Virus record (IMG/VR): IMGVR_UViG_3300033061_001635
Coordinates: 96,001-160,000 of that record
Origin: a virus
Taxonomy: Duplodnaviria; Caudoviricetes
Length of the DNA stretch: 64,000 nt
Reading direction: 5' to 3' (one strand)
This document shows, one piece after another, positions 3,161-50,278 of this stretch. Numbering within the stretch: the stretch's first letter is position 1; each line of letters begins with the position of its first letter. Position numbers and translations under genes: made by a program. Under the pieces are notes generated by a model. That model was not told where the DNA came from. It saw nothing but the letters and a program-made list of their open reading frames with translations, and did no database searches.

Positions 3161-6100
3161 TTATGCTGTTCGTCCTATAATACTTTGTTTAGCGGCACTA
3201 TTCATGCCTCCCTCAAACACAGTTTTGTCGTATTGCATATGAGAATCTTGGGAGATATTTTTTGCGTTAATAGAAGTCTGGTCATATATTTTCTGTTCCA
3301 TATTGCCCTTTATGCTGTCTAAACCAATGTGGTGAAGTGATGTCGTTTGCGTAACATTAGCAGATAGTGATGTTGGTATAGCATTCGCGTGTTCTCCAAA
3401 TTGAGCCGTGGCAGTTTGGAACGTGTCGATAGATGATGATAAACTTTTTTGTGCAGAATTAAACTGTTCCGTAAAATTGGCCCCAATTTGCTCTGTGTAT
3501 TCATTGAACTGACCAATAGCATTTGTAACAGCATCCTGTATGGACGATGCTATATTAGCCGTATCTATACTAACATTATTAGATACACCACCAGAGGAAG
3601 ATGCTGTTTGTTTGAGGGTTTGTCCCGCATTAGAAATAGGCGCCAATTGCGCCAGCTGTGAGGTTCCACCAGCAGCAAGATATTTCGGACCGGCTATGCC
3701 TCCATTGGCCAAATAATTAACAATTCCACCTCTATTAAAGTGACCACTATTAATAGCATTAAGGATAGGCATATGCTTTTGGCTAGATTCTCTATTGACT
3801 ACAAATTCTCCCGGAGTCAACATGGCTGGAACATTATCCGTTCCAGATGCTCCAATAAGAGCACCATTATTAGCATAAATTAAGCCACCAGAACTATGAT
3901 CTTTGGCTTTTTCGTCATGCTGTTCTAGTCCTGTTTTATATGCATGGGTAGCTACGTGATTTCCAAGATCTGGAACATATAATGGAGAATGGGTTTGTCC
4001 TATTCTTGAATAATCTCTGAGAGAGTAAGACTTTCTAGGTCCCAAAACCATAGGATCATGTACAACGCGCGTTGTTCCTGGCATATCAGCAAATCTTGAT
4101 TCTACTTGACTATTCTTCATTTTTGTAATTGGTGAGCTCTTCTTAAGGGCGTTTTCTACTTGTTTTTTTGCGATTTCTCTCTGAGCAGCATATGCCATTT
4201 GTTCATCAGGGGTCATTTGAGCAATTTCTTTTGCTGGTTTAAAAGTTTGTTCGCTAAATTTTGTTACAACATCAGCTCCGGTGACCATATCAGCAGGGGC
4301 GCTTCTACCTGGATGAAGAACTGGGGCAGCTGACTGATTAGGCAATAATTCATTACTTAATTGAGATGTTAATGAGTCATCGAATAGGCTCTTAGAATTA
4401 TCTATCAAAGACTTATCTACCTTACTTTTTACTACATAAGCTTCGCCTCCGGTGGCCACATACGAATCTCTCGCATAAATAACCGGAACTTGTGGTGCGT
4501 CATGATGAAATGATCCTACGCTTCCGTGTCCAGCTCCTCCTCTATTGATATCCGAGGCATTTTCTGCCATTCTGGCTATAGCAGCATCTCTCATAGCTGA
4601 CTGTGGAATTGGTTCACTAGCGCCAAGATTACCGGTATTTCTAAATTTATTGTTAGGATCAAGATGCCAATCTCCACTTGTTCCGGAATGAATGTCGGTT
4701 GTTTCTGATCCCATATGTGCAAATGCAGCATCTCTTGGAGACATTCCGTGAGGAACAGCCGTTTCAGAGGCTATTCTAGCTGCTGCTATCGCAGCATCGC
4801 CTGAAGTTATCTGTATAGCTCTTCCAGTTTGAGCCATAGTCTCTGAACCAATTCCTTTTCCAATCCCCTCAACAGCTGATCCTGCGAGTCTTCTTACTCC
4901 TTGTGCAGCCTGATCTACATGAGTAAGTCCTACTTCAGTTGCGGCGCCAATCGGATCGGCAACTTTTCCAAGATTAGAAAAACCAGCACCTATTCTAGCT
5001 CCTCCTAGTGCTCCTACACCAGCAACCATAGCGGCCTGATTGGCAAGTGCGCCTGTGCCAACTTCTGCTGGTCCTTCTCTGAATTTTGTTCCATCAGCAT
5101 ATGTTAATGTTGTTGTTGGTTCTAACTCAGATTCTGGTAATACAACATGAGCCAAACCTTGTCCCATAAATATGGCTGCTCTCTCTGGTAAATTCAATAA
5201 AGTTCTACCCTGATTATCATAATATTCTTTGGATTGATCAAAATAATTACCAACCATACTTTCTGTTCTAGCTTCTGATACCGGCTTTTCTCCCGCCCTT
5301 TCCCCATAATTTCTTTGATAATGTAGACCAGCAGTAACGTCAGCGCCACTGGCCCCTCCCATAAACTGAGCAGTTCCTGATGCCAATCTATCTGCCTCTA
5401 ATTGTTCACCCATAAACCTTTCGGTCATTTGTCCTAGCACACCAGCAGAATCATACGATGACAATGCATCATTTGATCTTTGTTCTTTGTCTGATTTGCC
5501 TCCTTTAGCTAGATAATTTACCGGTCCTCCTTTACTATATCCAAATGGTCTAGTCAAATATGCTTGTCTATCATCCATTTGTCCAAATGGTCTTGTTAGA
5601 TATAATTCTTTTTGACGTTGATAAATCTGGCGTTCTTCTTTTTGACTTTGGTAAATCTGGCGTTCTTCATCTGTAATTATTCCATCTTTATTTAGATCTT
5701 CATCTTTGTCAATATTAGTTCCTGCTTTGCCACCATCGGCTAAATAATTTATCTTACCTCCTTTACTTTTATTGATAGAATGTAATAATCCCAAATTCTC
5801 CTTTGTTGACTTTGCATTAACAACAAACTCACCAGGGGTCAGCATCGCAGGAACAGTATCGGTTCCTTTTGGTGAAAAATCAATTAATTGTCCATTTTCA
5901 GCATATATCAATCCTCCGCTAGCTCTTCTGGCTGGTTTTCTGACCTTGGCTTGGTCTTTAGATTGAGATCCAAATAATCTGCCAATAGAGTCAGCAGCAA
6001 GTCCTGCCAAAGCTCCTGTTGTGCCATATTTTTTAGCAAAATTAACTGCACTGCCCAACATAGATTTTGGAGTTTGGGTCTGGAATGGTTGATCATCTGC

Positions 6101-9100
6101 ATAGCCCATGGTGCGATTGTATTGCTTTAATGCTCTGTTATATGATGGATTGTCTGTTGGTTTTTGACGCAAAGACGCCGAAACAGCAGCCTCTTCTTCA
6201 ACAAAAGCCTTTTGCATTGATTCAACTATAGATGGCTCAATAGGCTTAGAGGTTCCTCTAGTAGCTTGGCGAGCCCTAATGTATTCATCAAATGACCTGG
6301 CTCTATCAGCAGCACCACTAACTAATGGAGCATACTCTTTTGGTAGATTTTTTACTACTCCAGGAGTTAATAATCCAGCATCTTCTAATGCTCCTATGGC
6401 ATCAGAGGCTGCATGAAATCCTTCATGATTTAATGCAAAAGCATCATCTGCTAATTTTATATTTATTTGTCCACCAATACCAACACCTTCATCTAGAACA
6501 TCTGGCATAAAGTTTCCTCTCGGTTTTAGTCCCGGAGTGACTTCCGCATTATTTTTAGACTTTTCTACAAACTCAACTATTCTTTTTGCTAAAAACTTTT
6601 CTCCTTGAGAAGTAAGTTTGTATTGTCCACTAGTTGTTCGTCCAGATGATTTAAGATCTAACATTTCTGGTTCCATGGCCTTGGCTGCCCTGGCATTTAA
6701 TGTAGCAGAGTCTCCTCCTCCAAAACCATATTCTGTGCCCCGCATGGGTTGAGCAGACATCGCAGTTTTCTTAACCGACTCAACCACAGATTTGCCCGCT
6801 TTTCTAGTTTGCTGGTCTATGCTCTCCCATAGCCTCGCTTCTTCTGCGTCATTGAGCTTTTCAGTTATATTGTATCTGGATTCATCTAAAGCTTGCTTCA
6901 TATCTCTGTCTATAGCTGATTCTGCTTTAGCTTGTTCTGTTGCTCTTTGTCTTTGTGATTTTTGTCCACCAAGAATACCTTGTCCTCTACCACTTAATTG
7001 TTCAGCAGTTCTTGCGCTATTTGCCATGGAAACTATTCCAGACGTTATTTGAATAAGATCAATAGCGTCTTGAGGAGTTGATTCTCTCTTCATAACTCGT
7101 CCAGCAATATCGGGAACTTTTCTAAGAGATGCTCCAGCGGTAACTACTCCAACAGGAGTAAGCATACTAGCGGCAGTAACTCCAATAGCTGTTACATCTC
7201 CTGGTTCGGATGTTCTTAAATAGTTTGTTCCGTCACTAAATAATACATTACCATTTTTATCAGCATATTGTATAGGTCCATGCTTCTGAATCATTTCCTG
7301 CAAATCTTGATCTTTTTGAATTCTGTCTAAAGTTTGAACAGAGAGTGCTCCGGTTCCTCCTTGAGAAAAAATTATAGGAGGAACACCACCACTATCTTTC
7401 CATAAAGGATTTGTTGTCTGAGAATCTAAAGGAGGTAATATTTCTGCATCTGTTAGTGGACCAGCCAACATAGGATCTACGCCAAGCGACACAGCATCTG
7501 CTTTAGTTAACTTAGTTTTTGTTTTAGTCTCTTTAGATGTCTCTCTAGAAGCTTCAAATCTGTCTCTGGCTGATAATCTAGCAACATTTTTGCCGTCCGC
7601 AGCAATTTCCGTACCAGATGTGTGTCTTTCAGATCCGTCAAGTTTAAATCCTGTTGCGTAGTCTAGTAGTCCTGACATAAAATCAGAAACCGCTGCATCT
7701 CTTTCTTTAGTTCTTTTTGTTCTATCTGAGCCAACCATTTCTGGCGGAAGTGTGGAGTCAAATAGTTCTGAACCAAATAGCTTAGGTTTATCGGCACCAT
7801 ATTTTTTAAATAAATCTCCAGCTTTTTTAGCTTCAAAATAATCTTCAGCATTTTTATAAGATTCGCCAGCCCAGCGTTCTCCGTCTGGCTTATTAACGCC
7901 TCTTCCAAGTCCTATCGGATTTGACCCAGCACTGGCCCTGCCAGTAGAACCAAACTCAACCTGAGCATGTCTTAATTGCTGTAGTCGTTTCTCTCTTTCT
8001 TTATCGCTTATACCCTCTTCTTGAGAATGTTGTCTATATACGTCTATAATTTTTTTGCCTTCGTCTATAGCAAATTGTACTTTTCTTGCTGACTCTTGTG
8101 CTGTTGCTGTTCTGGAGGAAGTTGCCTGCTGAGCAACAGCAGCCGTTTGGGCTTCTTGATTGGCTGTTGGCTGAGTTGTAGTTGGCGATAAGGGTTCTTG
8201 TGTATTAACAGGTTGTGATTTTGTTGTATTAACCGGTGAAGTTCCGGAAGATGTATTAAGTGGTTTGCCATCTTTGTCCAGACCCATAGTAAATAATTTC
8301 TGTTGCGCTATCTGACGAGCCATGGCAGCCGTATTGTTAGGATCATTAGCCAAAGTAACCCAGTCCTTTGTTGCAAATTTACTAAAATCTGCATCTCCTA
8401 TATCATCGCCTGTTGTTCCATCTGCTTTTGGATATTTTCCTGTTGTAGTAGAAATAGTTGGTTTAGTAACAGCAGCCATCTGTTGATTTGTCTGTGTTTT
8501 TGCTAATTGGCCTGATGAAGAATTAAGCATGCCACCAGAGGGGTTTGGTAATAATAATTCAGTATTAGGATTAATAGTATTTGGAACATTTTTATAAGGT
8601 GGAGGCAGAATCAAATCAGCAACATTTTGAGTTGATCTTGATCCTTCCATTTTAAACATCTTACCTCTTGGAGATGTCCCATCAGGATAATATAACATTC
8701 CTGATTTTAGTAGTGATTTTTCTTTTCTCTCTCTGATTTCTGGTCTGAATCTAGATAAGTAGGCTTGTTGTCTTTCGTATCTTATTTGTCCTTTAGCTCT
8801 GTCTAGCATTTCTTTTCTTGTGTTAATGCCGCTAGATTTAGTTGTCTTATGTAATGATCTTAGATTTTGATACTCTGTTTCTTCCTCTTCTGTTCTAGAT
8901 TTTGATCCTTTGAGCCATAAACTTTTTCTTCTACTATATTGTTTACCCATGCCCAATTTGAATTCCTTCATGTCTATTGCATCATCTTTGTTCAAATCAA
9001 AATCAGAAAAATATTTAGTAAATTCTTTTTTATCTAGTAAATTATTTTTGTTTTTATCAAACTGTGTAAAGTCAGATACTAATCCTACTTTGTCAAAATA

Positions 9101-12100
9101 TCCAGAATTAATAGACTGTAATAATGGTAAGTGTTTTTGTGTAGACTTAGAATTGATAACAAACTCTCCAGGACTCAACATAGCAGGAACAGTATCCGTG
9201 CCCTTAGGCTTGAAATCAATAAGTTTTCCATTACTAGCATATATTAATCCTCCAGATGATCTGGCTACAGGAGGAGCAGCAACAGCCACCCCAGGATTTA
9301 CTATGTTGTTACCAGCAGCATCCTTTCCTATGTTCGCATCCTTCATATTTCCTTCAACACTTGCTCTTAAATCATCAATACTAATACGTAAATTATCATT
9401 AGAATCTTTTAGTATAGATTGTGATTCCGCTAATTCGCCCTGTCCCTTTGTCGCGCTTGAACGTAAACCCACGGACTCTAAATATCTTTCAGCAGCCTTT
9501 TGCATACTAGGGTCTGTTTTACGATCTTGTAAAGCAGCCAATGACTGTTGAACTAATGGATTATTGGCCATTCCACTTTCTATAGCCATTTGTTTCGTTA
9601 ATTGTAGTTGTTGTTTTTGGAAATATTCGGCTACTGCTTGATCAACATCTACTCCCGGTTTTCCTTGATTCTGAGCATATTGATTTCTTATTTGTAGTTC
9701 TTGAGCAGCTTTTACTCCGGGATCTTGTGATAAGGCTAACGTTTCTTTTCTTTGATTAGCAAGAACAGTATTCCCAGCCCTAGTAGCTTCTCTTACATTC
9801 CCTGTTTTAAATAAAGCTTCATTAAATGCTTTTCTAGCATCTCTTTGATTATATGGACTATTTAATCCACCAGAAAGATTTCGTTGCAGTCTAATAAAGC
9901 TTTGATTAAGCTTATCTGCTTCTTCTGGAGTATTGGTCAATAATTGATTAACAAAATTTTGTCTATTATTTTGTAATTCTGAAGTATGTTGAAGATCACT
10001 GAATGCTTTATCTACTAATTCTGTACTATTAGCAAGCATATCTAATGCTTCTCTATTATTTTGCAATTGATCATCTAATTTATTAAGCTGTTCAACATTG
10101 TTACGCAAAGCGTCTTTATCTGTAAGAGTACCCTGTTGTTTTTGTAAAGTATCTCTTTGTTGAGAAAGTCTTATTTGTCTGTTCTGAATGCCTTGGACAG
10201 TTGTTTCTCCGCCAGCTAAATTACTAACATCTCCCATGATTCTATTGCTTTTCTCATTATATGTTTCACCATATCCGCTTAAGATTTCTCTTAAGTTCAT
10301 ATTACCTTCGTTAGAGATGTCTCTCGATTTTCTAAAATAGTTTTGAGCTTCTTTAGCTGCTTTGCTAGCTTCGTTCAGTCCTTTTGCAAATTTATCTAAT
10401 GCTCCTTCTTTAAAAGAAGACAAGTTTTTAACAGAATCTAATAATTTTTTACCAAAATCACCCAAAATATTCGTACCATCTTCTAATTCTTTTCTAAATT
10501 CTGATACTTGCATAGTATTATCAGCATTATTTTCTTTGGCTTTCTTAGCCATGTTTTCAATTTTAGCAGTTGATATCTGTTTCAATTCGTCTTTTTGCTG
10601 TCTAGATAAATTAGGATTATTTTCTATTTCATTTTTAGCAGTATCAACTGCTGCTTTTTTAAGTTCATCTACTCCTGAGCCAGCACTCTTGTCTAAAACA
10701 GTTGCTATACTTTGTGTAATATTTTTGGGTATATTTTGTTGTAATTGAGCACCACCAATTAATTGTTTTCTAATTCCAGCATCTAATCCCGCTGTGGCAG
10801 ACTCTAATGCTTTAGTAAATTCTTCTTCAGAGTATGCATTAGGATTATCTAGAATATTTTTTTCTCTTAATTTTGGACCAGAAACTTTAGACTCTCCACG
10901 TAATGATGATGCATATTGGGTCGTTGCCTCTACCCTAGCATCAGACTCAAATGATATTTTATTAACAGACTCATTTACTATGTCTGCTATTTTATCAAAA
11001 CTAGCAGCCAATCGTCGTCCAGCTTTATCTGCAAGATCCATAGCTCTTGCTAATTTTGCGCTTTCTTGAGAAGCTTTTGCTAATTCATCATTAGCTAAAA
11101 ATTCATCTTGTGCTGCTTTACCAACGATAGTTTCTTTACCTTGTTCCCCAGCAGACATATATAGAGCTAATTTTTTAGGATCAGATAAAATCATGCCTTT
11201 TAAAGATTCTCTAACTATATTTCCAGCTTCATTACTGGGATCCATGATTTGATCATTACTGAATCCTTTTGAATAAAGTCTTTCTAAATCTCCGTATCCA
11301 GTATTGGCTATTTTTTGGTAATTTTCTAATTCTTTTTGAGCATCAACGCTTGCCTCTTCCGTACCATAAGAGCCTTTTTTGGATTTTGCAACTGTTACTG
11401 GATCAAGGTCTTGGTAGTATGGATTCATGCCAACGCCAATTTCTCCAATGCCTAATAATATTCCTCTACCAAAATCTGTCCAATTACGATCATTTTCTGC
11501 TTTATTTTTTCCAGCTGTTGCTGTATCTGCTGTACTTTCTATAGCGGTATCTGTTAAGGCCTTAACCGACGATGCTGTTTTTGCTCTCAAATCAACATTA
11601 TTAACATCCTTACTTAATTTTTCCAAAGCATTTGATAGACTATCACTAGCAGCAGATAATTTGTCATTTAATAAAGATCTTGTCATTTCTTGGGCAGCTT
11701 TTTTCGCTGTTCCAGAAAAATCAAATGCAGCATCAGCACCAGCATACAATGCTGTGCCTATAGCAGCAGCGGCCCCTAGCATAGGATTGATAGCGGCTAA
11801 TTGTGCTGATGTTGTTAAGCCTACAGATAGTGTTGTTGCTGCTTTGTCTATTCTAGCCCCTGCATCTGCTGCTTTTATTTTTCCCTTATCTGTTTTAGTA
11901 TCAAATAATGCTGATGATATATTTTGGCCTTGCCCAGCAACCAACCCCGCGGCCAACCCAACGTCACCAAGTCCTCGCTGCATACTTCTTCCTAAATTAC
12001 CAGTAAAATATCTTTCTCTAAATGCTCTATTAATAGGACTATTTCTAGTATCCATTAATCCAGCAGCCCCAACGCCTCGCTCTCCTCTCATTTTAGCTAA

Positions 12101-15100
12101 GTCATTTATAGCTTCTCTTCGCTTACTCACCTCTTCTTGTGCTAATTTTTTAGCCTCTTCTGCTGAAGCTACACTAATGCCTCTAATAGTTCCAGCATTT
12201 TTATATTCTTCCATCCTCGTAGCTATTAACTGCTGATCCATTTGTCTGAGGGTTTTTCTATCTCTCATAGAATCAGAAATATATTTTTGAATATCATTAC
12301 CGCTAATATTTAGATTTTTTAATTCACTTGCTGTTATATTGCCTTTTATACCAGTAGAAGTTTGTGTTCCAGTAGCCACTGTTGTAGCTCTAGAAAAAGC
12401 TTGTGTCTTAATATCATTTAATTCAGAAGATATAGCCTGTGCAACCTGATCAGCTAAGTCTGATGCAGCTATTGGTTGTTTGGACGATGATACTATATCA
12501 GCTTCTATAGCCTTTTTTCTTTTATCTATTAATCGTTGCTCTTCTTTTTCTGCTAAAGATAATATTTTTTGTTGTGTAGCTCCTGATCCTAGTTTTTTAC
12601 CAACTGAACTTTCTTTAAATCCAGATTCTAAAAATTGACGCTTAGTAACATCAATAAGTCCCTTATTTCTGATATTAGATAATGCTTTTTCGGCTTCTAT
12701 AATCTTATCTATAGATGCTCCACTGATTTTTAGTCTTTCTAAATCTTTGTTCCCTGCATCCAATACAGCTTTTATAGATAGTTGTTTATTTTCATTCAAT
12801 AAACGATTTAAATATTTCATGCCGTCTCCGGCATCATAAAGAGTGTCCACAAATGCTTTTGTATCTTGCAAAATAGATGGATCTACTGCTATTGTACTAG
12901 TATCGATTGAGTTTGGACGATTGCTCGTAATATTCTGTGTTTTTCCTAAATAACTTGTTATATTTTGCAATCCAGAAAGAACACTATCTACGCCACCACC
13001 AAAAGCAAATTTTTGTACTCCTCCTACAATTCCTCCTTTATTATATCCTTGTATTTTGTCTGCTTTATTTAATTGATGTAATTTATTATATCCTATTTTT
13101 TTAGCAGCGTTCTTATTAACAACAAATTCACCAGGAGTTAATAGTGCTGGCACCGTATCTTCTGAAGATAGTCCCGTATTTCCTCCTGATGCAAATTTTC
13201 TGATACTTCCGCCACCATTCCGAGATAAAAATGATAGTTGCTGGGCTTTAATATGCTCAGCATATTTTGGATCATTCATATTTATAACATCTGGACTATT
13301 AATCAAATCCGCAGACTTGTTATAGCCACTTTGAAGAATCCATGCCGGATCACTAGGTGGTGGCCAAGTTTCTTTTCTTCCATATAGTTTAGGATCAAGA
13401 TAGCTATGATTTTTAGTCCATTGACTTGGATCAAGGGGAGTTTTCTTTACATCTGAGCGATTATTAAAATAGTATGACCAAACAGATTTTGCAGATTCAC
13501 TCACTTGATTTCTGTCTGATGTTAACATACTTCCAGCAGCAGTGGCAGCTTCCATTACTATGTCATATAATCTTGGACCATATCCTTGGGTTGCTTTTGA
13601 TAAACCAACAGTAAATAAATTGCCGGTTGCTTTTTTAGCGCTAACAAAACCTTGTCTATCGTTATTTTTAAAGTATGTCGCCGTTATTTCAGATCCATCA
13701 GATCGTAATCCTATTTTGCTATAATTTTTAGGTTTTTTCTCTTGTGATTTTTGTAAACCGGTTACGCCAGCAGCCCCTATAGATCTTTCTGGCATTCCTG
13801 CTGTTAAACCAGCACCCTGAAAAGTCCTAGCAATAGAATCAGCAGAACCATACATAGAACTTATCAAACTAGACATGTCAGTGTCTTCTAATCCTAATGC
13901 CATACCTCCATCAGCATATTTAGGTAAAGTTTTATAAAAATCTGGATTCAGTCCACTCTCCCCAAAAGCCTGAGATAAAAGCTCAATAGCTCCTTTATTG
14001 TTTTCTACAGCGGCCGACAATAAAACGGGAATTAGTTCATTTTTACCCAAATCCCATTGTGTCGCACCAAGAGTGCTAAAAAGGTTTTGAGATACATTAT
14101 TTTTTTTCGTTATTTTTTTAACAGAGTCATGGGCTTCTGCTATAAAATTTCCAGAATATGGACTCTTGCTTGTTGCTGTTGGGAAAAAATGCTCAAGTCT
14201 ATAATCTTTTGGTCCTGCCCACTCGGCATTCTTTGGATCTTTATACCATTTTTCAACAGCATCTTTACGCTTTAATAAGCTTTCATGCAGTTTATCTATA
14301 ATTTCAGGATGATTATCATATAAATGTCCTTGAATATCATGAAAAGACTCATGAGCAAGAACACCTTTATGAAGTCCTCCTGCTGTTTTTATAGTATCAT
14401 CATTGCCTTCAAATAGTATTCGCTGATCAACAAATTGTTTAAGTGCCTTATATTCATCTTCTGGTAATTTACTTTTATATTTTTCAAGATTATGTCTAAG
14501 AACCTTGGGCATTAATCCACCCTGATAAAATGCTCCTGTTTGTTCTTCTGGGGGAGCCTTTTCAGATTTTCCCAACAGTATTGACATCACACTGCTTTTA
14601 CTTTTTTCAGCAAGACTTCTTCCTGGTATAAAATCAATAGGTTCTGCTTGACCAGATGGCATTTTAAGATAGCCATCAGATGTTAACATTTCTTTTGGTA
14701 GAATACTTGCTAATATTGACTTGTATTCTTCTTCAACTTTACCACCTTTAGCAAAGGTATAATGTATCGCTTCGTGCCCCTGGCCCTTCAATCGCATTAT
14801 TGTTTCTAAATTATCGTCAATCATCTTTTGATAACCGGTAATCTTCTTATTTTGCGGACCGTTTGATCCTCTAATTTTAGATTCCGGAATGGGTAATCCT
14901 AGATTTTGTAAGGTCTGAGCTAAAATACCGGTTTGATTAGGATTTCTGGCTGATAAAATACTAACGTTGTCTATTAAAGATGGCTCTTGTTTTAATGCTT
15001 CTGATAAGTGTTGTCCTAGGGGTGTAAGCTTGCCTTTCTTTAACATCTCTTGAACCAAAGGCATATCGTCTTTTCTTGATAAATCTAGTTTACCATCAGG

Positions 15101-18100
15101 AAGTCTAATTTCTCCACCAGTAACCAGAGTATCATCAAAATCAAAAACCATTTCTTTAAATGGGCCGGTCGAGTTATTGTTTGGGAATATTTCTCCATAC
15201 TTTTTAAGTAGTCCGCCGCCTGATAATTTCTGAACCATCTTATCATTCTTTGGTTCTGGTATTCCATATTGTGCTCTAAAATATTTTTGAAATTCTTCAA
15301 CAGCCTTGCCTCTACTATTACTATCTATTGTTCTTTTAACTTCTGTTGGAATATTAGGATCAATACCAAATATTTTTGCCGCTTTAGGTCCGATGCCCAT
15401 TGGAAAGTCGATTGGACGAGTTCTTAAAGCATCGTCCAATATGGTAGCATCTGCTGATCCAAAAATTTGTTCTAGTAAAGCCCCTTCAATATTTCCTTGT
15501 CCTAATGTTTCTCTTTGTTTTTTAGTTAATTCTTTAGGAGTAATACCAAGAAGTTTTGATGCTCCTTGTACTATTTCTGCTGTTTGTCCACTAAGATAAT
15601 CAATAACATTTTGGAATTCTGTTGGTAATCCTCTTTGTACTATGGAGGCATTTATTGACCTGTCTTTGCCGGACGAATCGGTGCCAAGATTCCAAGTTTC
15701 TGGACCTAATAATCCAGTATATCCTAATGGATTTAATCCTACTAAACCTAATTGTGTCGATGACAAAACAGCATTTGTTGTATCTTTTAATGCTGTTGCT
15801 TTTTGAGTTCCTTGTGATTGTTTAAATTTATCTATTAAGTAATCTCTTGTTCTTGTATAGTAAGCTAATTTATCTGCTTTAGTTTCTGGTCTAAATGCAG
15901 AATTCCAATATTTTAATTTGCCACCTTCAGCAGTATCAGATACTGTTTTTCCTGAGAATGGGCCAAAACTTGAATCATTTGGTAATCTTTCAGATCCAAA
16001 TCTTTTTAATATCTCTGTTCCTTGAGCTGGTAATATTCCAGAAGATTTTTTAACAGCTGTTTCTGTAGCTACTTTTGCTAAAATAGCTTGTTGTATAGCG
16101 GAAGATGGACCAGTTGGAGATGATGATGAATCAGTATCAAATCTTAGTCCATATTTTGCAGGATCGCTGGTTGCTAACTGTCTAAGAAGGCGATATGGTT
16201 CAAATGATTTTTTAGTTTCTAGTTTTTTCTTTTTATCTTTTAAGGACCGATAAAGCTCTAGTTGAGCAGCATACTCTTTGTCTGTCTCTGCTTTTTTATT
16301 ATCTGCGCGAGTTATTCCTGTTGCGGCCAACTGCTGGTCTATACCGGATACTTCTTCTTTGTATGCTGCTTCTGCTTGTTCTATTAGTGTTGGCAATACG
16401 TTGGATCTGTTCTGTAGTTGAACCATATTGTTTTTTAATAATGAAAATACCGAGGGGGAAACAACTTGTTGAAGACCCTCTAGATTTCCATTTAATACTA
16501 AATCCCTAACTTGTGTTCCACTTATTCCGCCTGTTCTTTTTAGATTAGAGACTCCATATCCTGCTTTTTTATATTTCTCCATTTGCTTTTCTGTCTTGTC
16601 TGCAACAAAAGCCATGCTTCCTTCACCAGCTAATGTAATCTGTCTACGACCATCCTTTTCTCCCATATCAAAAGCTAAAGGAACACTCATATCTCCAAAT
16701 GCCTTTGGTAGAACAGAGGCCCCCTTAGATCCGAATCCTGCTTTGGCCAGTGCTAATCTAAAATCTTTATCAAATACTGCTGTTCTATAATTTTCAGAAT
16801 CTACAGCCTCATCGGATCCGACTAATGCTATAAAGTCTTCATAGGGTATGCCAGCAGCTTTGGCTGCTTCCATCATAGATTCGTGACCTACTGTTGTTGG
16901 AGCAAATCCTCCCCAAGTTAATCCTATTTTTTTCTTAGTTGCTTCTACTAGTTCATTTCCTGTTTTACGACGTAATCCACCGTCGTCTTTTCGTCCTAAT
17001 ACTACTGATTTAGAACCTATTCTATCTTCTAATAAAGCTTCTTCTTTTGCCGTGTCTAATGGAGCCCCTGTTGTGCTACCAGCTGTTCTACCAAATAATC
17101 CAACACCACTAACGTCCCTCATTGTTCTTTGTTTAAGAATTCTATCTTTTTCTTCTTTTGTAGTAGACGATAATGTATAAGCTCTATCTACTTCCTGTAA
17201 CATACCCTCTAACTTATCCTGAGAAACTGTGCTTGTAAGCAACATAACTTCTGAAGCTTTAGTTATATCTTCTGGGGTTAGGATAGGGAAGCGATTTGTT
17301 TGTCGTAGTGTTCCGTTATCGTTGGATCCTCTTCCGGTAACAATACTACTTTTACCAGCTCCGGCCACGCCATATAGTGCTTTTAGAGAGTTTAAACTTT
17401 TTTCTTTTCTGGCTTTGATGGCTAGATCAGTTAAATACTCCGTATAATTTCTTGGTCCATCAACACCGGCTTTTTTCATAGCCTGTTCAATAACTTGGGC
17501 ATTTGCTGGATCATTAATTACATCAAAATCAATATATCCTAAATTTCTTGTAACCTTACCACCATCTGTATATTGTTGTCTTTGAATTCCAGCACTACCT
17601 AATAATTCATTTAGAGTAGAGTCTAATATTCCCTCCATATTAGAATCTAGCATTGGTCGTTTTTGAATTAGAGTTGTTAAAAATTCTTCTTTACCATTAT
17701 CTTCTGCTTTATTTATAACATCTTGCTTAACTCCGCCCTTTAATAGTAAGTCAGTAATTTTAGGATTTATTGGTCGATATTCACGAGCATTTTTCTTTTT
17801 TTCAGCTTCAAAATATAATGCTGATCCTTCTTTAGAAACTTCAGGATTGTCCGATCTTCCCGTTCTTATCGTATCTCTTCTTAAATTGCTTAATACGCTA
17901 TTAAGCATGTTGTTTTTATAGCTACGACCATATACAACATCGGCGCTATTATATCCGCCATCTTTCTCTGTTAGAGCATCAAAAGCATCAGCCAATCCAT
18001 CATTATCACCAGAGAATAATTGACTTACTCTATTTCTATATTGATCAAAAGCGCCTGATGATTGTGTCCTTATTGAATTTAATAATTGATGTGTTAATTC

Positions 18101-21100
18101 ATGATATAATGTATTTTTTTCTTGATTTGGGAAATATCTGGTGCTACTTAAACCCACTGTTCCTCGTCCGGTAGTTTCGGTAATTTCTTTTTTAGCCGCC
18201 ATTGCTGCTTTTCTAGCATAAGCTTGTTTATCTTTCACTTTAGATATTTGCATAGTTAATGCAGATTTTTCATCATAAGCCTTTTTAAATGCAGCATCAT
18301 CAATTGAAAAAGATCCATCATCAAAAGTTTTTGTTGGCGTTTTCATTATCTTCTTAATTTCTTTTTCTTTTTCCTCCCATAATTTTTGATAGCCATATAG
18401 ATCTTGTTCATCGGCCGTGGTGAACCCATACTGAGATAAATCTAACTTATCAAAATCTCTAGCGCCATAAGGATTTGCATAAAAAGTACCACGAGAACTA
18501 ACGTTTTGTCCTACTCCACCAAAATCAATATTTTGTGGTAAAACTTTAGACAAATCCTGTTCTGGTAAACCTATATATTTAGCAAAATTTGCTAGATCGC
18601 CCACTAAATCATTTCGTCTAATTTTAGTCTTAAACAAACTTTCAAATTTTTTGCGATCAAAAGCTTGTGACTTAAAATGTTCAGCAACTGCATTCTGATC
18701 AACATTTATTCTTTCATCTTTTGGATATTGATCCCACGCTAATGATACTTGTTCATCATTTAACTTCTTTTCCATTTCTTTAACATAAGCGTTCGTAATG
18801 CGCTTGGGAAATTTGGTTTGTCCTGTACCGAATGGGGTTGATTCTGCTTTTCCTCCGGCCATGAATCTTTGAATTCTTCCTCCAAGATTTTTTTTATCAA
18901 ACTTTTTTGGATCTTGTTCAATTAATCTTTTATTCTGCTTACCCTCTGGTAATGACAGATACTCTGCCTTAGTTATAGTTTCTGCTCGCTTCGGTCCTGT
19001 ACCAGAATATGAAAAACCTAATCCTTTATCTATTAAGTTCTGTTTTAGATTATCGTCAACAAAAAGCGGTCTCCCACTACGTTCTTTATCTGTCTGTTGA
19101 CTATATCCTTTAGTAAAATTCTCTGTTACATTTTTACCTTTTGTATATTGTGTTTCAGTTAATTTTTTTGCTTCAAGAGCAAGATTTTTTTTCCATTTTT
19201 GGTTACTTCTCATTTCAAATGTATCAACTCCGACAAGTCTACTACTAGTATCATATGCCGAAGTTTTTGGTGTGAACTTTACTACTGGACTGTCTCCGTC
19301 GTAAACATGGTCAACAACCACATTTAATGGCTCTGGGGCTTTTCCTCCACCGCCAAATCTTTGTCTTTTATTTGATTTTCCTGCTCTTATACTTCCACCA
19401 CCCCCATACTTATTCATATTATGAAGATTATCTGATCCTATAGTTTCAACAGCTTTCTTTCTTATAACAAATTCTCCTGGCTCTAACATTGCTGGTACAG
19501 TATCTCCACTGCCAGTACCAGGAACAACACCACCTCGTGCAAATTTTCTTATAACTCCGCCATTAGCTTTACCATCTGGTCCTCTTTTAACTCCTGTGGT
19601 AAATCCTGTAGTAAATTCTGTTAATGCTTTAAATCCCTTAAATGCTGCAAGAACTGCTAATGCTGGAAGAATTCCTTTAACGGCGTCTGCTACTTTTATC
19701 AAACCGCTAGTTAAAGATAATGCACCTCTAACTAAACTCTGAAATCCTTTAGATTGACCTATCTCACGAAATAGTGAGAAAAATTCTTCACGAACTTTGC
19801 TTATTTGATTTGCTAAACTAAGTTGTGCTGTAGCAGCATCTTTAGCCAGAGATGCCTGTCCTTGTTGTGCAACCTTTAATGCCTGCTGGGTCACAGTGAA
19901 TTGTTGAATAAGAGGAATAACTTTGCCAATTTGACGAAATCCACCAAGTTCTTCAACTATTCTGGAAAAATCTAAACTTCTAGGATCTATCTTGCCTAGT
20001 CCTTTGCTTAATAATTCAACGGCTTTATATGCTCCAACAAATTTACCTTCTGTGTCTGTTAGATTAACACCAAACTCTTTTAGCGCATCTATTGTTGTTC
20101 CTCTTTGAACACGAGTAAATATTGTCCGCAATCCAGTAGCAATAGTTTCAGCACTTTCACGACTAGTTGCTCTAATACTAGTAAATACCGAAATGAATTC
20201 ATTTAAAGCGTCTTTTCCTTCGCTTACTCCTTTGCTCGCAGTAGCAAATACGCTACCTGTTCTTTGTACAGCCGTAATGATGTCGCTGGATTCTACTGCG
20301 AATCTTGCGGCAACAGCATTAACTGCTCCTAATGATGCCTCCAAATCATTAGCGCTAATACCAAACTGTCTCATTATAGCAATACTGCCTTCGACAGTCT
20401 CATTCATATTATCGAATGATGGAGCTAAGCTACTAAGAGCTAAAGCCTTTAGAGCTTTCTCAGTTTCTCTAGCACTCAAACCAGCCTGAGCTAATGTTGA
20501 TGCTACTTGAGTTAACTCTTTAGAACTAACACCAAATTCTACAGCTAAATTAGTAATTTGAGATTGCAGTTTGGATAATCCAGCAGCAGATTCACCAGTA
20601 ACTTGTTGTAGCTTTACAAGTTCTTTATCATAATCAATAAAAGCTTGTATACCATTATTTATACTATTGGTTACGCCATATATAACGCTTGTAACAGCAC
20701 TAAATGCAACGAATCTTCTAACTGCTAAACCAGCCTGTTTACCGAATTCCTGCATCTCTGTTGCGGCATTTTGCAATCCTCCAGATGTTGATGAGGATAC
20801 TTTATTTAATTTAGCAATTGCTGACGAAGTTTGATTAATTTGTTGAGGGACATTGTTAATTTTAACAGAATTTACGCTATTACCAAAAGCCTTTATTGCT
20901 GATGTGGCAGCATTGGCTGATTTGACAGTTGAGGCAAAATTAGCATTTAGAACTTTTAATGAAGACGATAATGCTGCAACATTTTTTGATGCTGCCGGAT
21001 CAAGTTTAAACTGTACGTTTGCATTAAGAGTGCCAAGATCTTTTTTAATCTGAGCAGCTATTTGCTTAACGTTTGTTGGACCTTTAAGATTCAACTGTGC

Positions 21101-34032: not shown

Positions 34033-37000
34033 TTATATTTGTATTATAGTAAGATCATCTATATATCCAGTATATGTTGAACCGCCCCAGCATTCTGCCA
34101 ATAATTCAACAACTCCAGCTTCTGTTGGAGTGAAGCTTAAGGATACTTGTTCCCAAGTATCAGCAGCAGCAGTCATATAACTAATAACATCATTAGTAAC
34201 TCCGGCTATTTGTCCACCTTTAACTTTTAATCTAAAAGTTAATCCAGTACTTGTGCGTCTCATCCATGCTTTGATTGTGACTATACTATTTGCACTAACA
34301 GCAATTTGAGATATTGAAAAATCAAAAGGATAACTATCTCTACGATAATCACTTGTTGGAGCCAAACTCCATGCATACCCAGTATTACTATATCTTACGC
34401 TTGTTTGAGGTCTTACTAAACCAAAATCACTATATATAAACAAATTATTAGAGGTATTATCATGAGTGGTACAATATATTCTGCCATTACCTCCTCCATA
34501 AAAACCAAATTCTGAACTTTCATTGATCAAACAATTGTTCAGATACATGCTTCCACCAAAACTAAACAAAGAATTATAAGAGCTAATATTTGAAGTTGTA
34601 CAGTTATTTAAGACTATATTACTACCACATCCTTGGGTTCTAATAGCCTCTCCTTGATTATTGTTAAAACTACAATTATTAAAAGTAGTATTTGTTCCAC
34701 CTCCAGTATCATAACAGCCTATTGACCCATTATTGTTTATATAGCAACTATTAAAAGTTATATTATTAAAAGTAGCTAAATCCATTCCACGCAGATTATT
34801 ACTTTGAAAATAACAATTCGTAAATTTATGTACATTAAATCCAAAACTAGTAACCATGCCAATATTATTGCCATTAGCAAATATATTTTCAAATTTACAG
34901 TACTGAGTAGCTGTTGATAAATCAAAGTTATTAGTACAAGATATTACATAAAAATCTTTAAAGAAAGTGAAACTTGCATTTGTTACAGATACCCTATCAT
35001 ATCGGACAAATCCTAACTTTTTAAAGCTCCAACTAGCTCTGGATGGTGATGATATTCCGTAGCCTAAGCCGTTTTGTCCATCAAAAAAGGAGATCCCGCT
35101 TTGAGTACTCATGTTGGTTCGGTCATATCCTCCCTCAACAGATAGGACGGGAGCAAAATGACTTGCAGAGTCATTGATAATATGCACACCATTAGAAGCA
35201 GCACTCTGTACAGCTGTTTTTATAGTTTCTCTTTTATATGTTGTTATTGTTTCGGTAGTTCCGTAGTATCCTTTTGAAAAGTTCCCCTGAGTACTAACAA
35301 CTGGATTATTAGATAGTCTTCCGTCTATTATAACTCTTGTGCCAACAATACTTTGTACGGGATACCAACTTTCATTGGTAGTATTTTTGCCGATGAGAGA
35401 AGTTAAACTTAATGAATTTGCACTAGAACTAGCTTTGCAGGCGATAATATTGCTAATGAGTAGTATTTGTTGTCCTATGTCACTTGTAACACGAAGAGCC
35501 ACACTTTGAATGCTAGATCCTAAATTAGTAGCAAGATCAACAGTAAAAACATGCCATATATTTGATACTCCCAAAGCCGGAATATTAAATGTATTGACAG
35601 GAGTTGCTCCGGCAGAATCGCTACACAACTGTATTTGTAATTGGCCAGCAGATCCTGTTGTTCCTAGAATTTGTTGTATAAAAAAACTTAATTGTTGATA
35701 TCCGCTAAGATCCTTTGCACTAAAAGATTTGTATGCGGCAACGCCAGTTGTAAAATTAGCTCCTATAGAAATATTATCAGAAATATTTCCTTGTTTTGTT
35801 GTAGTAGAAAGTGCTGTTGTGACGTTCGAACTCGGAGTCCAAACAGTTCTTCCTTCTCCTACATTACCATGACCAGCAATATTGTCTGTTAATGCTGAAT
35901 TTAATCTTACTACACAGTTTGTTGCTCTTCTTGCTGTTCCTGCTGCTCCTCCAACTCCGTTGCCTGTTGAACCAGTAAGAGTAAACGCTGTTGAACTTGT
36001 TACTGTTATTTCCCATGTTCCGTTAGCATTGGTATTTGTTGTGTGATCACATATAAATACGGTATCTCCGGTTGAATATCCGTGTGTTGCTGACGTGGTA
36101 ATGGCTATTGGAGTAGCGTTGGTAGATGATGCTATTGCTACAGTAGGAGACGATCCTGCCCCGTTCCATGTTGCACTACCTATACTTGTTGGATCTGGAC
36201 TAGCTTGTACCCTTATAACATCACAAGAATGAGTTCTAACTGCGGTTAATCCGTTTGTAAATGTTTGTATTCTTCCGCCGATATAGTATTGGCGACCACT
36301 AGTATCGGCCAATGCGGTTCCTGAACTAATAGCTGATAATGTTAAGCTTGTGCTGCTTACTCTTGCTATTATGTGATAGTAAGCGTATATGCTTCCATTA
36401 AAAATACTCAATATTTGGCCGGGAGGATTTTCGTATGCTGTAACAGAAGCTGCGACCTCTATTTGAACAGCAGTGAAATAAATTCCTTTTGTTGTATCTC
36501 CCATATAGCTGGTGTTGAGAGCGTCTAATCCGTTATAACCATCTTCGGCCAAATAAAAAGCGAAATTATCAGTCGAAGCAGAAGCAGATGATGTTGCTGT
36601 CATACTTAGTCGATACCATCCTCCACCAATATTGCTAATAGCTGCTGTTGCACTTGCTCCTGTTGCTTCAACAGTTCCACTAGACAAGTTAAATCGTACT
36701 GATTTTGTCGCATCATTGGCTAACTGAAAAATGACCTTATTTCTTCCGGCAGTTCTGACATAAACAGAAAATGTATATTGAGTACTATTCGATAGTGTTA
36801 CAAAAGGAGAAGCTTGAGTTCTAGCCAAATGTGTTGTGACAGTTGGATATTCTTGAAGATAATAAATGTAAGAACTTATTCCTGTTGGACCAGTTATAAC
36901 TTCATCAACATAATAGTCCAAGCTTAACAATCTGCAACCATTGTAACTTCCATAATTTTGCCAGAAATTAGTATGCCAGCATATGTTTTTAAGAGGAGCT

Positions 37001-37146
37001 ATAGTATTGTTATTAGGAAAATTTGCTGTTGCCGAACTAAAAGTAGTAGACGTTATTGCTCCATCACTTCCAGAAGCCAAAAGAGAGAAACTAGTTCCGC
37101 TGTAATTATCATTTCCAGATTCATTATCTAAATAAAATGTTGGCAT
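34033..37146 (-). CDS. Receptor-binding/spike protein with carbohydrate-binding-like domains and parallel beta-helix
   Basis: YTFSVYVR...GGGWYRLSMT...AVQIE jelly-roll-like region, then an ATPIAITT..HGYSTGD.V small domain (FCCH-like). C-terminal F.NC.F..N repeats are typical of pectin-lyase beta-helices. Confidence 0.65.
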   Translation of the reverse strand: MPTFYLDNESGNDNYSGTSFSLLASGSDGAITSTTFSSATANFPNNNTIAPLKNICWHTNFWQNYGSYNGCRLLSLDYYVDEVITGPTGISSYIYYLQEYPTVTTHLARTQASPFVTLSNSTQYTFSVYVRTAGRNKVIFQLANDATKSVRFNLSSGTVEATGASATAAISNIGGGWYRLSMTATSSASASTDNFAFYLAEDGYNGLDALNTSYMGDTTKGIYFTAVQIEVAASVTAYENPPGQILSIFNGSIYAYYHIIARVSSTSLTLSAISSGTALADTSGRQYYIGGRIQTFTNGLTAVRTHSCDVIRVQASPDPTSIGSATWNGAGSSPTVAIASSTNATPIAITTSATHGYSTGDTVFICDHTTNTNANGTWEITVTSSTAFTLTGSTGNGVGGAAGTARRATNCVVRLNSALTDNIAGHGNVGEGRTVWTPSSNVTTALSTTTKQGNISDNISIGANFTTGVAAYKSFSAKDLSGYQQLSFFIQQILGTTGSAGQLQIQLCSDSAGATPVNTFNIPALGVSNIWHVFTVDLATNLGSSIQSVALRVTSDIGQQILLISNIIACKASSSANSLSLTSLIGKNTTNESWYPVQSIVGTRVIIDGRLSNNPVVSTQGNFSKGYYGTTETITTYKRETIKTAVQSAASNGVHIINDSASHFAPVLSVEGGYDRTNMSTQSGISFFDGQNGLGYGISSPSRASWSFKKLGFVRYDRVSVTNASFTFFKDFYVISCTNNFDLSTATQYCKFENIFANGNNIGMVTSFGFNVHKFTNCYFQSNNLRGMDLATFNNITFNSCYINNNGSIGCYDTGGGTNTTFNNCSFNNNQGEAIRTQGCGSNIVLNNCTTSNISSYNSLFSFGGSMYLNNCLINESSEFGFYGGGNGRIYCTTHDNTSNNLFIYSDFGLVRPQTSVRYSNTGYAWSLAPTSDYRRDSYPFDFSISQIAVSANSIVTIKAWMRRTSTGLTFRLKVKGGQIAGVTNDVISYMTAAADTWEQVSLSFTPTEAGVVELLAECWGGSTYTGYIDDLTIIQI

Positions 37147-45045: not shown

Positions 45046-45090
45046 TTTTTCCCCTTATTACGAAAAATATAAAAATTTAGTTAAATATAT

Positions 45091-45096
45091 ATACAC
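45091..45096 (-). promoter_or_regulatory. Putative late promoter motif GTGTAT
   Basis: AAGTGTATATATAT, 46 bp upstream of the ATG at 45045. Confidence 0.55.
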
Positions 45097-45098
45097 TT

Positions 45099-45365
45099 TT
45101 AACAATTTCCACCATCAAGAATATCAGAAGTATTAATTGTAGAATAATTAGCCACCAATAGAGAACCACTATTAGGAACAGAAACTGTACCACTAGCATA
45201 TATTCTTAATATACTAGGATTTAATGAACTTTTAAAATTAAGACTATTATCATTTAAAGCTTCAATAGTTATAGGAATATTTCCAGAACCAGTAAATTCA
45301 ATTCTAGGATATCCAGAAGTTCCAGTTTCTGGAAAAATACCAATTGTTTTATCAGCATTAGCCAT
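45099..45365 (-). CDS. Small fibre adaptor-like protein ending LDGGNC
   Basis: 88-aa ORF packed in the fibre cluster. Confidence 0.7.
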   Translation of the reverse strand: MANADKTIGIFPETGTSGYPRIEFTGSGNIPITIEALNDNSLNFKSSLNPSILRIYASGTVSVPNSGSLLVANYSTINTSDILDGGNC

Positions 45366-45366
45366 A

Positions 45367-47862: not shown

Positions 47863-47936
47863 ATTTTAACCATATTATGAGTTATCCTATTATAGAATCT
47901 AATACTATAATATTGACTATATTAACTTTGTCCAGC

Positions 47937-50252: not shown

Positions 50253-50278
50253 ATTATATTCCTTAAATTATAAAGATA

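What the first reader, a model, noticed from the sequence alone, without database searches (positions are those of the whole stretch)
3794..19504. Five-copy DTVPAMLxPGEFV module bracketing the cargo blocks: autoprocessing or recombination cassette
Seen: the module occurs at aa ~540, 2655, 3976, 5088 and 5762 with invariant D, P, G-E-F-V, each flanked by GG motifs. Copies 1-2 enclose the 2,000-aa enzyme block; copies 3-4 and 4-5 enclose the later blocks. Copies 3 and 4 keep DNA similarity. TMPs I know usually have one such module near the C-terminus. Inference: either a small (auto)peptidase or recognition domain acting on the neighbouring GG sites, with the invariant D/E as candidate catalytic residues, or a homology anchor for gaining and swapping cargo by recombination, or both.
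Basis: partly seen in the sequence, partly recalled or inferred. Interest (0 to 1): 0.75.

Follow-up and report, generated by a model that had tools for sequence, protein, structure and literature searches.

The report
Repeated joint motif in giant tape measure
A 5,986-residue phage tail "ruler" protein carries five copies of a short conserved joint, the same element that sits where phage lambda cuts its own ruler protein; the copies fence off swappable enzyme blocks, so they probably mark cutting or docking points and are not enzymes themselves.

Summary
The 5,986-aa ORF (window 3161-21121, minus strand) is a tape measure protein (TMP). It holds five copies of the D-x-V-P-A...G-E-F-V module at aa 540, 2655, 3976, 5088 and 5762.

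What the searches showed:
- The module is not peculiar to this gene. A profile finds it in about 19,000 protein clusters, all those inspected being TMPs.
- It matches lambda gpH aa ~717-797 and occurs two or three times in some actinophage TMPs.
- Simple TMPs have one copy, of type A. Giant TMPs follow a conserved order, A-B-C-C-C, which this protein has.
- No Pfam family and no solved structure covers it.
- AlphaFold finds only a turn plus two short helices, so a self-contained peptidase is unlikely.
- Homology with the closest relatives breaks at the modules and their Gly-Gly flanks: 13 of 17 breakpoints lie within 10 aa of a GG, against 2.9 expected. Two insertions sit exactly between repeated GG joints.
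- DNA similarity among the five copies is no more than the shared residues require.
- The published cleavage positions of lambda gpH and T5 pb2 fall at the N-terminal GG edge of this element or its T5 look-alike.

Best reading: a conserved joint and probable processing site that separates scaffold from cargo. Cleavage here is inferred, not shown. The scan had already noted similar giant TMPs on other DNA.

The parts
3161..21121 (-). Giant tape measure protein ORF, 5,986 aa, no cysteine
   Evidence: PF10145 at aa 188-380 (E 5e-22). PHROG TMP families phrog_28 and phrog_4211 over aa 18-499. Zero Cys.
19571..21121 (-). TMP core, aa 1-517, ending in the only strong hydrophobic stretch before a module (aa 473-496)
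   Evidence: Shared with about 180 of 229 relatives.
19343..19570 (-). Module copy 1, type A, aa 518-593: upstream GG hairpin, core at 19466-19504, two short helices, trailing GGGG runs
   Evidence: i-E 1e-31. AlphaFold model.
13226..19342 (-). Cargo block X, aa 594-2632: a string of enzyme-like cassettes (SNase-like, HExxH, nucleotidyltransferase-like and others) separated by short aromatic-x-x-GG joints
   Evidence: Weak Pfam hits to SNase and CTP_transf_like/HIGH_NTase1_ass. HExxH motifs. Shared by only 11-40 relatives.
18851..18883 (-). Stand-alone GG hairpin joint, aa 747-757, the left border of a 429-aa cassette
   Evidence: exact junction against P0019.
17558..18850 (-). Cassette aa 758-1188 with the first HExxH motif. 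It is absent from the closest relative and ends in its own aromatic-x-x-GG.
12992..13225 (-). Module copy 2, type B, aa 2633-2710, core at 13121-13159, with three trailing GG joints
   Evidence: i-E 1e-33.
9263..12991 (-). Conserved low-Pro/Gly block, aa 2711-3953, between types B and C; probably the ruler proper
   Evidence: Its length is about 1050-1320 aa in many relatives. Shared by 40-90 relatives. Composition.
9086..9262 (-). Module copy 3, type C, aa 3954-4012, core at 9158-9196
   Evidence: i-E 1e-20.
5927..9085 (-). Cargo block Y, aa 4013-5065, with an HExxH at aa 4899. No relative shares aa 4200-4900.
   Evidence: Relative L087 has one type-C module where the window has copy 3, block Y and copy 4.
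5729..5926 (-). Module copy 4, type C, aa 5066-5131, core at 5822-5860
   Evidence: i-E 1e-24.
5498..5728 (-). Insertion of about 66 aa (aa 5132-5197) with internal short repeats, followed by a second GG hairpin joint (aa 5198-5208). The closest relative has a single joint and no insertion.
   Evidence: The flanking joints share 37 of 51 nt.
3899..5497 (-). Cargo block Z, aa 5209-5741, nearly unique to this phage
3665..3898 (-). Module copy 5, type C, aa 5742-5819, core at 3800-3838, with three trailing GG joints
   Evidence: i-E 7e-25. AlphaFold model.
3164..3664 (-). C-terminal tail, aa 5820-5986. By position it is the counterpart of the hub-binding end of gpHC.
   Evidence: The last module lies 140-350 aa from the C-end in 145 of 150 giant TMPs. 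85% DNA identity to L087.

Best explanation
The five elements are position-specific paralogues (types A, B, C, C, C) of one conserved joint. Ordinary tape measure proteins carry this joint once, between the ruler and the C-terminal piece that plugs the tail tip.

Each joint has three parts: a Gly-Gly-bounded hairpin-like flank, the D-x-V-P-A-x-L-x-P-G-E-F-V strand-turn, and two short helices. It has no fold of its own.

In this giant protein the joints belong to the conserved scaffold: core plus A, B plus ruler plus C, C, and C plus tail. Exchangeable cargo blocks sit between pairs of joints.

Most likely each joint is a docking and processing signal. After the tail tube has formed around the uncut chain, the chain is cut at the N-terminal edge of the joint, at a basic residue followed by a small residue, any residue, then Gly-Gly. 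This is where lambda gpH and T5 pb2 appear to be cut. The scaffold pieces and cargo blocks would then leave the tail as separate polypeptides.

The protease is unknown. Candidates are a host enzyme, one of the four HExxH-bearing cassettes, or assembly-dependent self-cleavage that uses the invariant Asp and Glu.

Shown here: the copies, their homology to gpH, the A-B-C-C-C order, the lack of a globular fold in the models, and the coincidence with mosaic breakpoints.

Inferred: that cleavage happens here, and where it happens.
For: - The copies are real and strongly conserved. Across 771 instances G is 100%, E 97%, P 97%, D 94% and N 96%.
- The profile finds 19,340 clusters. The top 150 are TMP giants with 3-10 copies. 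The first copy lies at aa 430-700 in 130 of 150, and the last 140-350 aa from the end in 145 of 150.
- Named hits are TP901-family TMPs with PF10145.
- A profile match to lambda gpH 728-797 has E 7e-7. Douge gp16 has two copies, E 1e-14. My own HMM aligns gpH 716-806.
- Lambda gpH loses a C-terminal piece of about 14 kDa from the Gly-rich region. The site and the catalyst are unknown (PMC12617516). A 14-kDa piece puts the cut at about aa 710-720, the first GG of the module.
- T5 pb2 is reported cut after R1127 or V1148 (PMC11937520). The only local match of the type-C profile in pb2 is 1127-1134.
- Type-C joints have K/R at -3 (51%) and A/S at -2 (73%) before the GG.
- A hydrophobic stretch precedes copy 1, as in lambda and T5.
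- AlphaFold gives only short helices.
- Cargo is bracketed by joints, and relatives differ exactly there.
Against: - No cleavage data exist for this phage or for any multi-copy TMP.
- The lambda site is only a mass estimate.
- The two T5 sites disagree. R1127 may be an artefact of tryptic mapping.
- The T5 resemblance is not significant: E 0.22 in a one-sequence search, and nothing by hhalign.
- Copy 5 has His, not Lys or Arg, at -3.
- Conservation of the joint in simple TMPs without cargo shows that its first role is not cargo release.
- AlphaFold's failure to fold it could reflect a fold that needs partners.
Confidence: 0.5

Rival explanations
1. The module is a purely structural joint. It never gets cut. 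It clamps the three or six TMP chains together, or docks them to the tube lumen, the distal tail ring or the tail chaperone, at intervals. Cargo blocks are then held between fixed points inside the tube.
For: The joint is conserved in simple TMPs that have nothing to release. It has no fold of its own, as expected of a segment that folds on a partner. TMP C-terminal parts are known to form trimers in tail tips. Giant TMP genes are almost never split into separate ORFs; one possible case among 80 loci.
Against: There is only one hub per tail, yet up to ten copies per chain. The module region is not resolved in the solved lambda or Douge tails: only gpH 818-842/849 and Douge gp16 1658-1699 are modelled, which suggests that it is not rigidly docked there. 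The proximity to the lambda and T5 cut sites would be a coincidence.
Confidence: 0.28
2. The module is itself a small self-cleaving peptidase, with the invariant Asp and Glu as catalytic residues. It cuts its own GG flank once the tail has assembled.
For: Gly-Glu is invariant and Asp nearly so across about 770 instances, in a very short element. The catalyst of gpH cleavage is unknown. The protein has no cysteine and no recognised protease domain. By eye the core resembles the Ser-Met-x-Pro-Thr-Leu...Gly-Asp hairpin of LexA and signal peptidases, which self-cleave upstream.
Against: There is no globular fold in two AlphaFold runs. No Pfam match. hhalign against LexA and LepB gives probabilities below 1%. 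Asp occupies the position of the catalytic Ser and there is no counterpart of the catalytic-Lys box. In lambda the Asp position is not strictly kept.
Confidence: 0.1
3. The module exists mainly as a recombination anchor. Its conserved DNA lets phages exchange cargo by homologous recombination, and the protein-level role is secondary.
For: 9 of 17 breakpoints with the two closest relatives lie in module spans that make up 7% of the protein (p 7e-7), and 13 of 17 lie within 10 aa of a GG. L087 has one type-C module where the window has C-cargo-C, the signature of an unequal exchange. Two insertions are flanked by repeated GG joints.
Against: The residues are invariant while codons drift. Copies within the gene share at most about 14-nt exact runs and 51-77% DNA identity. 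Position-specific types A, B and C have stayed distinct across hundreds of proteins, so there is no homogenisation. Several breakpoints are at tiny GG joints with no DNA similarity, 15 of 54 nt. Because relatives were selected by the module, BLAST segments end at conserved islands by construction.
Confidence: 0.1

Closest known systems
Lambda gpH, the region at the gpH*/gpHC junction (aa ~717-797)
   Same: Statistically supported homology to the module. The same order applies: hydrophobic or Gly-rich stretch, then module, then a C-terminal piece that binds the tail tip. A cut of unknown mechanism occurs at about its N-terminal edge.
   Different: Lambda has one copy and no cargo. Its Asp-x-Val-Pro-Ala part is degenerate. 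The exact cut site is unmapped.
T5 pb2 (pb2* / pb2C)
   Same: A TMP cut during tail assembly between a hydrophobic stretch and a C-terminal piece that stays in the tip. That piece carries a muralytic motif, so cleavage frees a cargo-like part. The local motif at 1127-1134 fits the type-C flank consensus.
   Different: No significant sequence match. The two published cut sites are in dispute.
Actinophage TMPs with several copies (mycobacteriophage Douge gp16, Gordonia phage Agueybana gp17)
   Same: They have two and three significant copies respectively. In Agueybana an SLT transglycosylase domain ends just before copy 2, so modules border an embedded enzyme in cultured phages too.
   Different: These TMPs are much shorter (1,699 and 2,146 aa). 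They lack the A-B-C-C-C order. Only the last 42 residues of the Douge TMP are resolved.
Thermus phage P23-45 gp96 (5,002-aa TMP fused to a virion RNA polymerase)
   Same: A giant TMP that carries an enzyme used after ejection (PMC10770324).
   Different: No module at all: no HMM hit even at E 10. The paper describes no TMP processing.
Polyvalent proteins of phages and conjugative elements (Iyer et al. 2017)
   Same: Very large injected multi-enzyme chains with mosaic domain content, proposed to be processed by zincin-like peptidases. Here there are four HExxH motifs.
   Different: Those proteins travel in the head or through conjugation systems. The paper does not mention tape measures, and this joint motif is not part of their description.
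Conserved motifs of T-even tail-fibre adhesins (His boxes, glycine-rich motifs) that delimit swapped segments
   Same: Works alike in evolution: short conserved protein motifs separate hypervariable segments and coincide with exchange junctions. This comparison rests on my own knowledge and was not checked in the library.
   Different: A different protein, and unrelated sequences. Whether recombination is targeted here is not shown.

Membership tests
Tail tape measure protein (TP901-type core, PF10145 / COG5281) | Match to the TMP core profile above the curated cut-off | tested here: met
   PF10145 79 bits against a cut-off of 33. PHROG TMP families E 4e-24.
Tail tape measure protein (TP901-type core, PF10145 / COG5281) | Gene lies in a tail module between chaperone genes and distal tail/hub genes | tested here: inconclusive
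   The gene lies in one long co-oriented block with fibre-like genes (Mtd_N, BppL_N, beta-helix). The immediate neighbours match no PHROG family.
Lambda-gpH-type C-proximal TMP joint (no database name) | Profile-level sequence match to gpH aa ~717-797 | tested here: met
   E 6.9e-7 in the PDB sequence search. Domain E 1.3e-9 with my own HMM.
Lambda-gpH-type C-proximal TMP joint (no database name) | One copy follows the hydrophobic end of the core, and one copy lies about 150-350 aa before the C-end | tested here: met
   Copy 1 comes after the hydrophobic stretch at aa 473-496. Copy 5 lies 244 aa from the end.
Lambda-gpH-type C-proximal TMP joint (no database name) | Proteolytic cut at or next to the joint in assembled tails | not testable with these tools
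   Needs virion proteomics. Only lambda and T5 have data.
S24/S26 self-cleaving serine peptidases (LexA, signal peptidase) | Ser-Lys dyad in a LexA-like fold, with profile similarity | tested here: not met
   hhalign probabilities 0.1% and 0.3%. Asp sits at the Ser position. No Pfam hit. No beta fold in the models.
Polyvalent proteins (Iyer et al. 2017) | Several unrelated effector enzyme domains in one virion-delivered chain | tested here: inconclusive
   Only sub-threshold Pfam hits: SNase 20.9 bits against a cut-off of 21, and CTP_transf_like E 0.0045. HExxH motifs.
Polyvalent proteins (Iyer et al. 2017) | Recognised zincin-like metallopeptidase domain for processing | tested here: inconclusive
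   Four HExxH motifs but no Pfam peptidase match.
Recombination-anchor motifs (boundary sequences of mosaic phage genes) | Exchange junctions coincide with the motif | tested here: met
   13 of 17 breakpoints lie within 10 aa of a GG (expected 2.9). 9 of 17 lie in module spans. Exact joints.
Recombination-anchor motifs (boundary sequences of mosaic phage genes) | DNA identity at the motif long enough for homologous exchange | tested here: not met
   Within the gene, 51-77% identity and exact runs of about 14 nt or less. Between phages, 75-92%.

The most novel reading that the evidence does not exclude
The joint is an assembly-triggered self-cleaving element. Once the tube has closed around the chain, the invariant Asp and Glu of neighbouring chains cut the Gly-Gly flank. 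This would be the unknown catalyst of the lambda gpH and T5 pb2 cleavages. It would also make giant tape measures true polyproteins that are diced inside the tail into an ordered queue of ejected enzymes.
Probability: 0.12. Interest if true: 0.85.

Novelty: new variant of a known kind. Interest (0 to 1): 0.62.

Why it matters
How lambda and T5 cut their tape measure proteins has been open for fifty years. The 2025 Ur-lambda paper states that the site and the catalyst are unknown.

This work ties the cut region to a short, very widespread and unnamed motif, found in about 19,000 protein clusters with no Pfam entry. It shows that giant TMPs reuse the motif as punctuation between scaffold and cargo.

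This gives a concrete, testable site: the residues before the first Gly-Gly, and the invariant Asp and Glu. The tests can be done in lambda and in cultured actinophages.

If the joints are cut, giant TMPs are tail-borne polyproteins that deliver an ordered set of enzymes ahead of the DNA. The joints would then be natural splice points for reading, and for exchanging, cargo in laboratory phages.

Tried and rejected
- Homotrimer prediction of the module (three copies, alignment A4): no verdict, score 0.01 against a mark of 0.42, controls not run. It says nothing either way.
- PDB sequence search with the five-copy profile found nothing. The broad profile found only full-length TMP entries in which the module is not modelled.
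- I considered a resemblance of the core to the LexA/signal-peptidase hairpin and dropped it after hhalign.
- Homology to T5 pb2 could not be shown with the broad HMM, hhalign or the type-C HMM. The T5 link stays a by-eye lead.
- Pfam on 118 module instances at E up to 10 gave no family.
- PHROGs gave nothing for ten neighbouring ORFs, so I did not establish the tail type (contractile or not).
- The SPbeta YomI TMP has no module, and neither does P23-45 gp96.
- The DNA of the closest relative, P0019, could not be fetched because the protein is over the 5,000-residue limit. I used L086/L087 instead.
- I did not run fold searches on the two models because only about 25 residues are confident.
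- A search for relatives whose TMP is split into separate genes at the joints found one doubtful case among 80 loci (L029), which I did not follow up.


Full report
**The object**

The window is part of a 175,133-bp IMG/VR virus record that CheckV rates as complete. Window 3161-21121 on the minus strand is one ORF of 5,986 aa.

Its first 500 residues are a tape measure core. PF10145 scores 79 bits, and the PHROG TMP families reach E 4e-24.

The rest matches little in Pfam. There are sub-threshold hits to staphylococcal nuclease, a cytidylyltransferase-like fold and EF-hand loops, plus four HExxH motifs. The protein has no cysteine at all.

**The observation**

A profile made only from other phages scores the five copies at i-E 1e-20 to 1e-33. 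It finds no further full copy in the protein, and there is none elsewhere in the genome.

Each copy is preceded by a Gly-Gly-bounded stretch 18-22 residues upstream. Four of the five are followed by more such stretches.

The same short unit, Gly-Gly then about six residues with an aromatic-Ala pair then Gly-Gly, also stands alone at aa 747-757 and 5198-5208. Half-units (aromatic, two or three residues, Gly-Gly) sit at other cassette borders. Aromatic-GG motifs number 25, against 10 +/- 3 in shuffles.

**How widespread it is**

A profile of the five copies finds 19,340 cluster representatives at E 1e-3 among 1.84 billion. Of these, 992 score below 1e-30, which means several copies per protein.

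The best 150 are proteins of 1,360-7,872 aa with 3-10 copies by my own count. Named or annotated hits are TP901-type TMPs.

In GenBank phages the module lies in annotated TMPs of phages of:
- Gordonia
- Stenotrophomonas
- Achromobacter
- Acinetobacter
- Corynebacterium
- Microcystis

It also lies in unannotated or otherwise named ORFs of phages of Pelagibacter, Bacteroides and marine Synechococcus.

No Pfam model touches it.

**The grammar**

In 80 IMG/VR loci the TMPs run from about 500 to over 4,000 aa, with one to five modules.

Single-module TMPs always carry one flavour, type A, placed after the core.

In the giants:
- The first copy is type A in 50 of 59.
- The second is usually a distinct type B.
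- The later copies are type C, and the last is type C in 55 of 59.

Twenty proteins of 2,614-5,986 aa read exactly A-B-C-C-C, as the window's protein does. The five copies are therefore old, position-specific paralogues and not recent repeats.

The first copy lies at aa 430-700 in 130 of 150 giants. The last lies 140-350 aa from the end in 145 of 150.

The A-to-B distance varies from about 45 aa (an empty slot with the two joints in tandem) to 2,116 aa here. The B-to-C block is often 1,050-1,320 aa.

**Relation to known proteins**

The broad profile (alignment A4, 118 instances) hits two PDB sequences:
- Lambda gpH at aa 728-797, E 7e-7.
- Mycobacteriophage Douge gp16 twice, at aa 959-1033 and 1409-1473, E 1e-14.

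My own HMM aligns gpH 716-806.

In all these structures only the last 25-42 residues of the TMP are modelled. No experimental structure of the module exists.

Gordonia phage Agueybana gp17 has three copies, with an SLT transglycosylase domain ending just before the second. The giant TMP of Thermus phage P23-45 has none.

**Structure prediction**

I ran AlphaFold2 twice: on copy 5 with the mixed alignment, and on copy 1 with a type-A-only alignment. Both gave mean pLDDT 66.

Confidence was confined to the Pro-Gly-Glu-Phe-Val turn and two short helices after it. This is a linear motif with a small helical cap. It is not a domain that could house an active site by itself.

A homotrimer job gave no verdict.

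**Evolutionary behaviour**

BLAST of the protein against 229 module-bearing relatives shows sharp conservation islands at the five modules. Between them lie blocks shared by few relatives (X), by many (the B-to-C block) or by none (most of Y and Z).

Against the closest relative, P0019, identity runs as follows along the chain:
- 97%
- an insertion in the window's protein
- 80%
- no detectable homology
- 94%
- no detectable homology
- 88%
- 41%

Against L086/L087 the DNA segments end as follows:
- after the Gly run behind copy 1
- inside copy 2
- at the end of copy 3
- at the start of copy 4
- after the joint behind copy 4
- at the start of copy 5

Of 17 breakpoints, 13 lie within 10 aa of a GG (2.9 expected, none of 20,000 permutations as high). 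Nine lie in module spans that make up 7% of the chain.

Two joints can be read to the residue:
- A 429-aa HExxH cassette is inserted directly after the stand-alone joint at aa 757. It ends in its own aromatic-x-x-GG, after which both proteins continue identically.
- A ~66-aa insert lies between two copies of the joint where the relative has one.

L087 has one type-C module where the window has C, cargo Y, C.

One caveat applies. The relatives were found through the module, so alignments end at conserved islands partly by construction. The joints at aa 757 and 1188 are free of that bias.

**Is it a recombination anchor?**

Within the gene the copies share 51-77% DNA identity in the core. Exact runs reach about 14 nt, and codon identity at conserved residues is not clearly above expectation. 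The flanks of the large cassette share 15 of 54 nt.

The A, B and C flavours have not been homogenised. Selection therefore acts on the protein. The joints are where exchanges survive, and they may sometimes guide exchange between phages, whose modules are 75-92% identical in DNA. I do not read this as the module's function.

**Link to processing**

Lambda gpH loses a C-terminal peptide of about 14 kDa from its Gly-rich region after tail assembly. The site and the catalyst are unknown, and gpHC stays in the tip (PMC12617516). A 14-kDa piece puts the cut at about aa 710-720, which is the first Gly-Gly of the aligned module.

T5 pb2 is cut between its hydrophobic stretch and a C-terminal piece that holds a motif credited with muralytic activity. 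The reported sites are R1127 or V1148, and they are disputed.

The type-C flank has K/R at -3 and A/S at -2 before the Gly-Gly, followed by hydrophobic, Ile/Val, Tyr. The only local match of that profile in the 1,219-aa pb2 is aa 1127-1134. It is not significant on its own, E 0.22.

As in lambda and T5, a hydrophobic stretch precedes copy 1.

**Reading**

I take the module to be the conserved joint of TMPs and the probable signal for their maturation cleavage. In the giants it is reiterated so that the scaffold pieces and the cargo blocks become separate polypeptides in the tube.

I put this at about 0.5. A purely structural joint gets about 0.28. A self-contained autopeptidase and a recombination anchor as main function get about 0.1 each.

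**Earlier notes of this scan**

After I had made the lambda link, the look-ups showed that the scan had already followed up giant TMPs with swappable enzymes on other DNA. Those reports describe the same fence motif and name P23-45 gp96 as the closest known protein. I took the P23-45 lead from there and tested it.

Noticed in passing
window 3161-21121 (-): The 5,986-aa protein contains no cysteine. About 60 would be expected at a typical 1% frequency. This may fit a chain that must travel unfolded and work outside the cytoplasm.
   Followed up: no
window 18089-18103, 14762-14776, 14339-14353, 6413-6427 (-): Four HExxH motifs at aa 1007, 2116, 2257 and 4899, in different cargo cassettes. None matches a Pfam peptidase. 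They are candidate zincin-like processing or effector peptidases.
   Followed up: partly
window 18851-19342 and 16052-17560 (-): Sub-threshold staphylococcal-nuclease match (aa 628-716, 20.9 bits against a cut-off of 21). Also a cytidylyltransferase-like match plus HIGH_NTase1_ass inside cargo block X.
   Followed up: partly
window 5531-5728 (-): The insert after module copy 4 (aa 5132-5197) holds an EF-hand-like loop and two short internal repeats. It is absent from the closest relative.
   Followed up: partly
window 42058-51739 (-): Four large co-oriented ORFs that alternate Mtd_N and BppL_N N-terminal domains, plus a beta-helix ORF at 34033-37146. This fibre or receptor-binding gene set lies upstream of the TMP, which is an unusual order.
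   Followed up: no
L086 and L087 (whole loci): Two IMG/VR contigs from different samples (3300042882 and 3300002835) are 100% identical over 20.6 kb, including a 4,950-aa TMP gene.
   Followed up: no
H27, H62, H63 (Synechococcus phages S-SM2, S-CRM01, S-SCSM1): The module also occurs in large cyanophage genomes, in ORFs annotated as transmembrane protein, hypothetical protein or endolysin. It may therefore not be confined to proteins annotated as TMPs or to non-contractile tails.
   Followed up: no
L033, L041, L047, L064 and P0009, P0018, P0022, P0026: In some relatives types A and B stand in tandem about 45-55 aa apart, sharing one GG joint. This looks like an empty cargo slot.
   Followed up: partly
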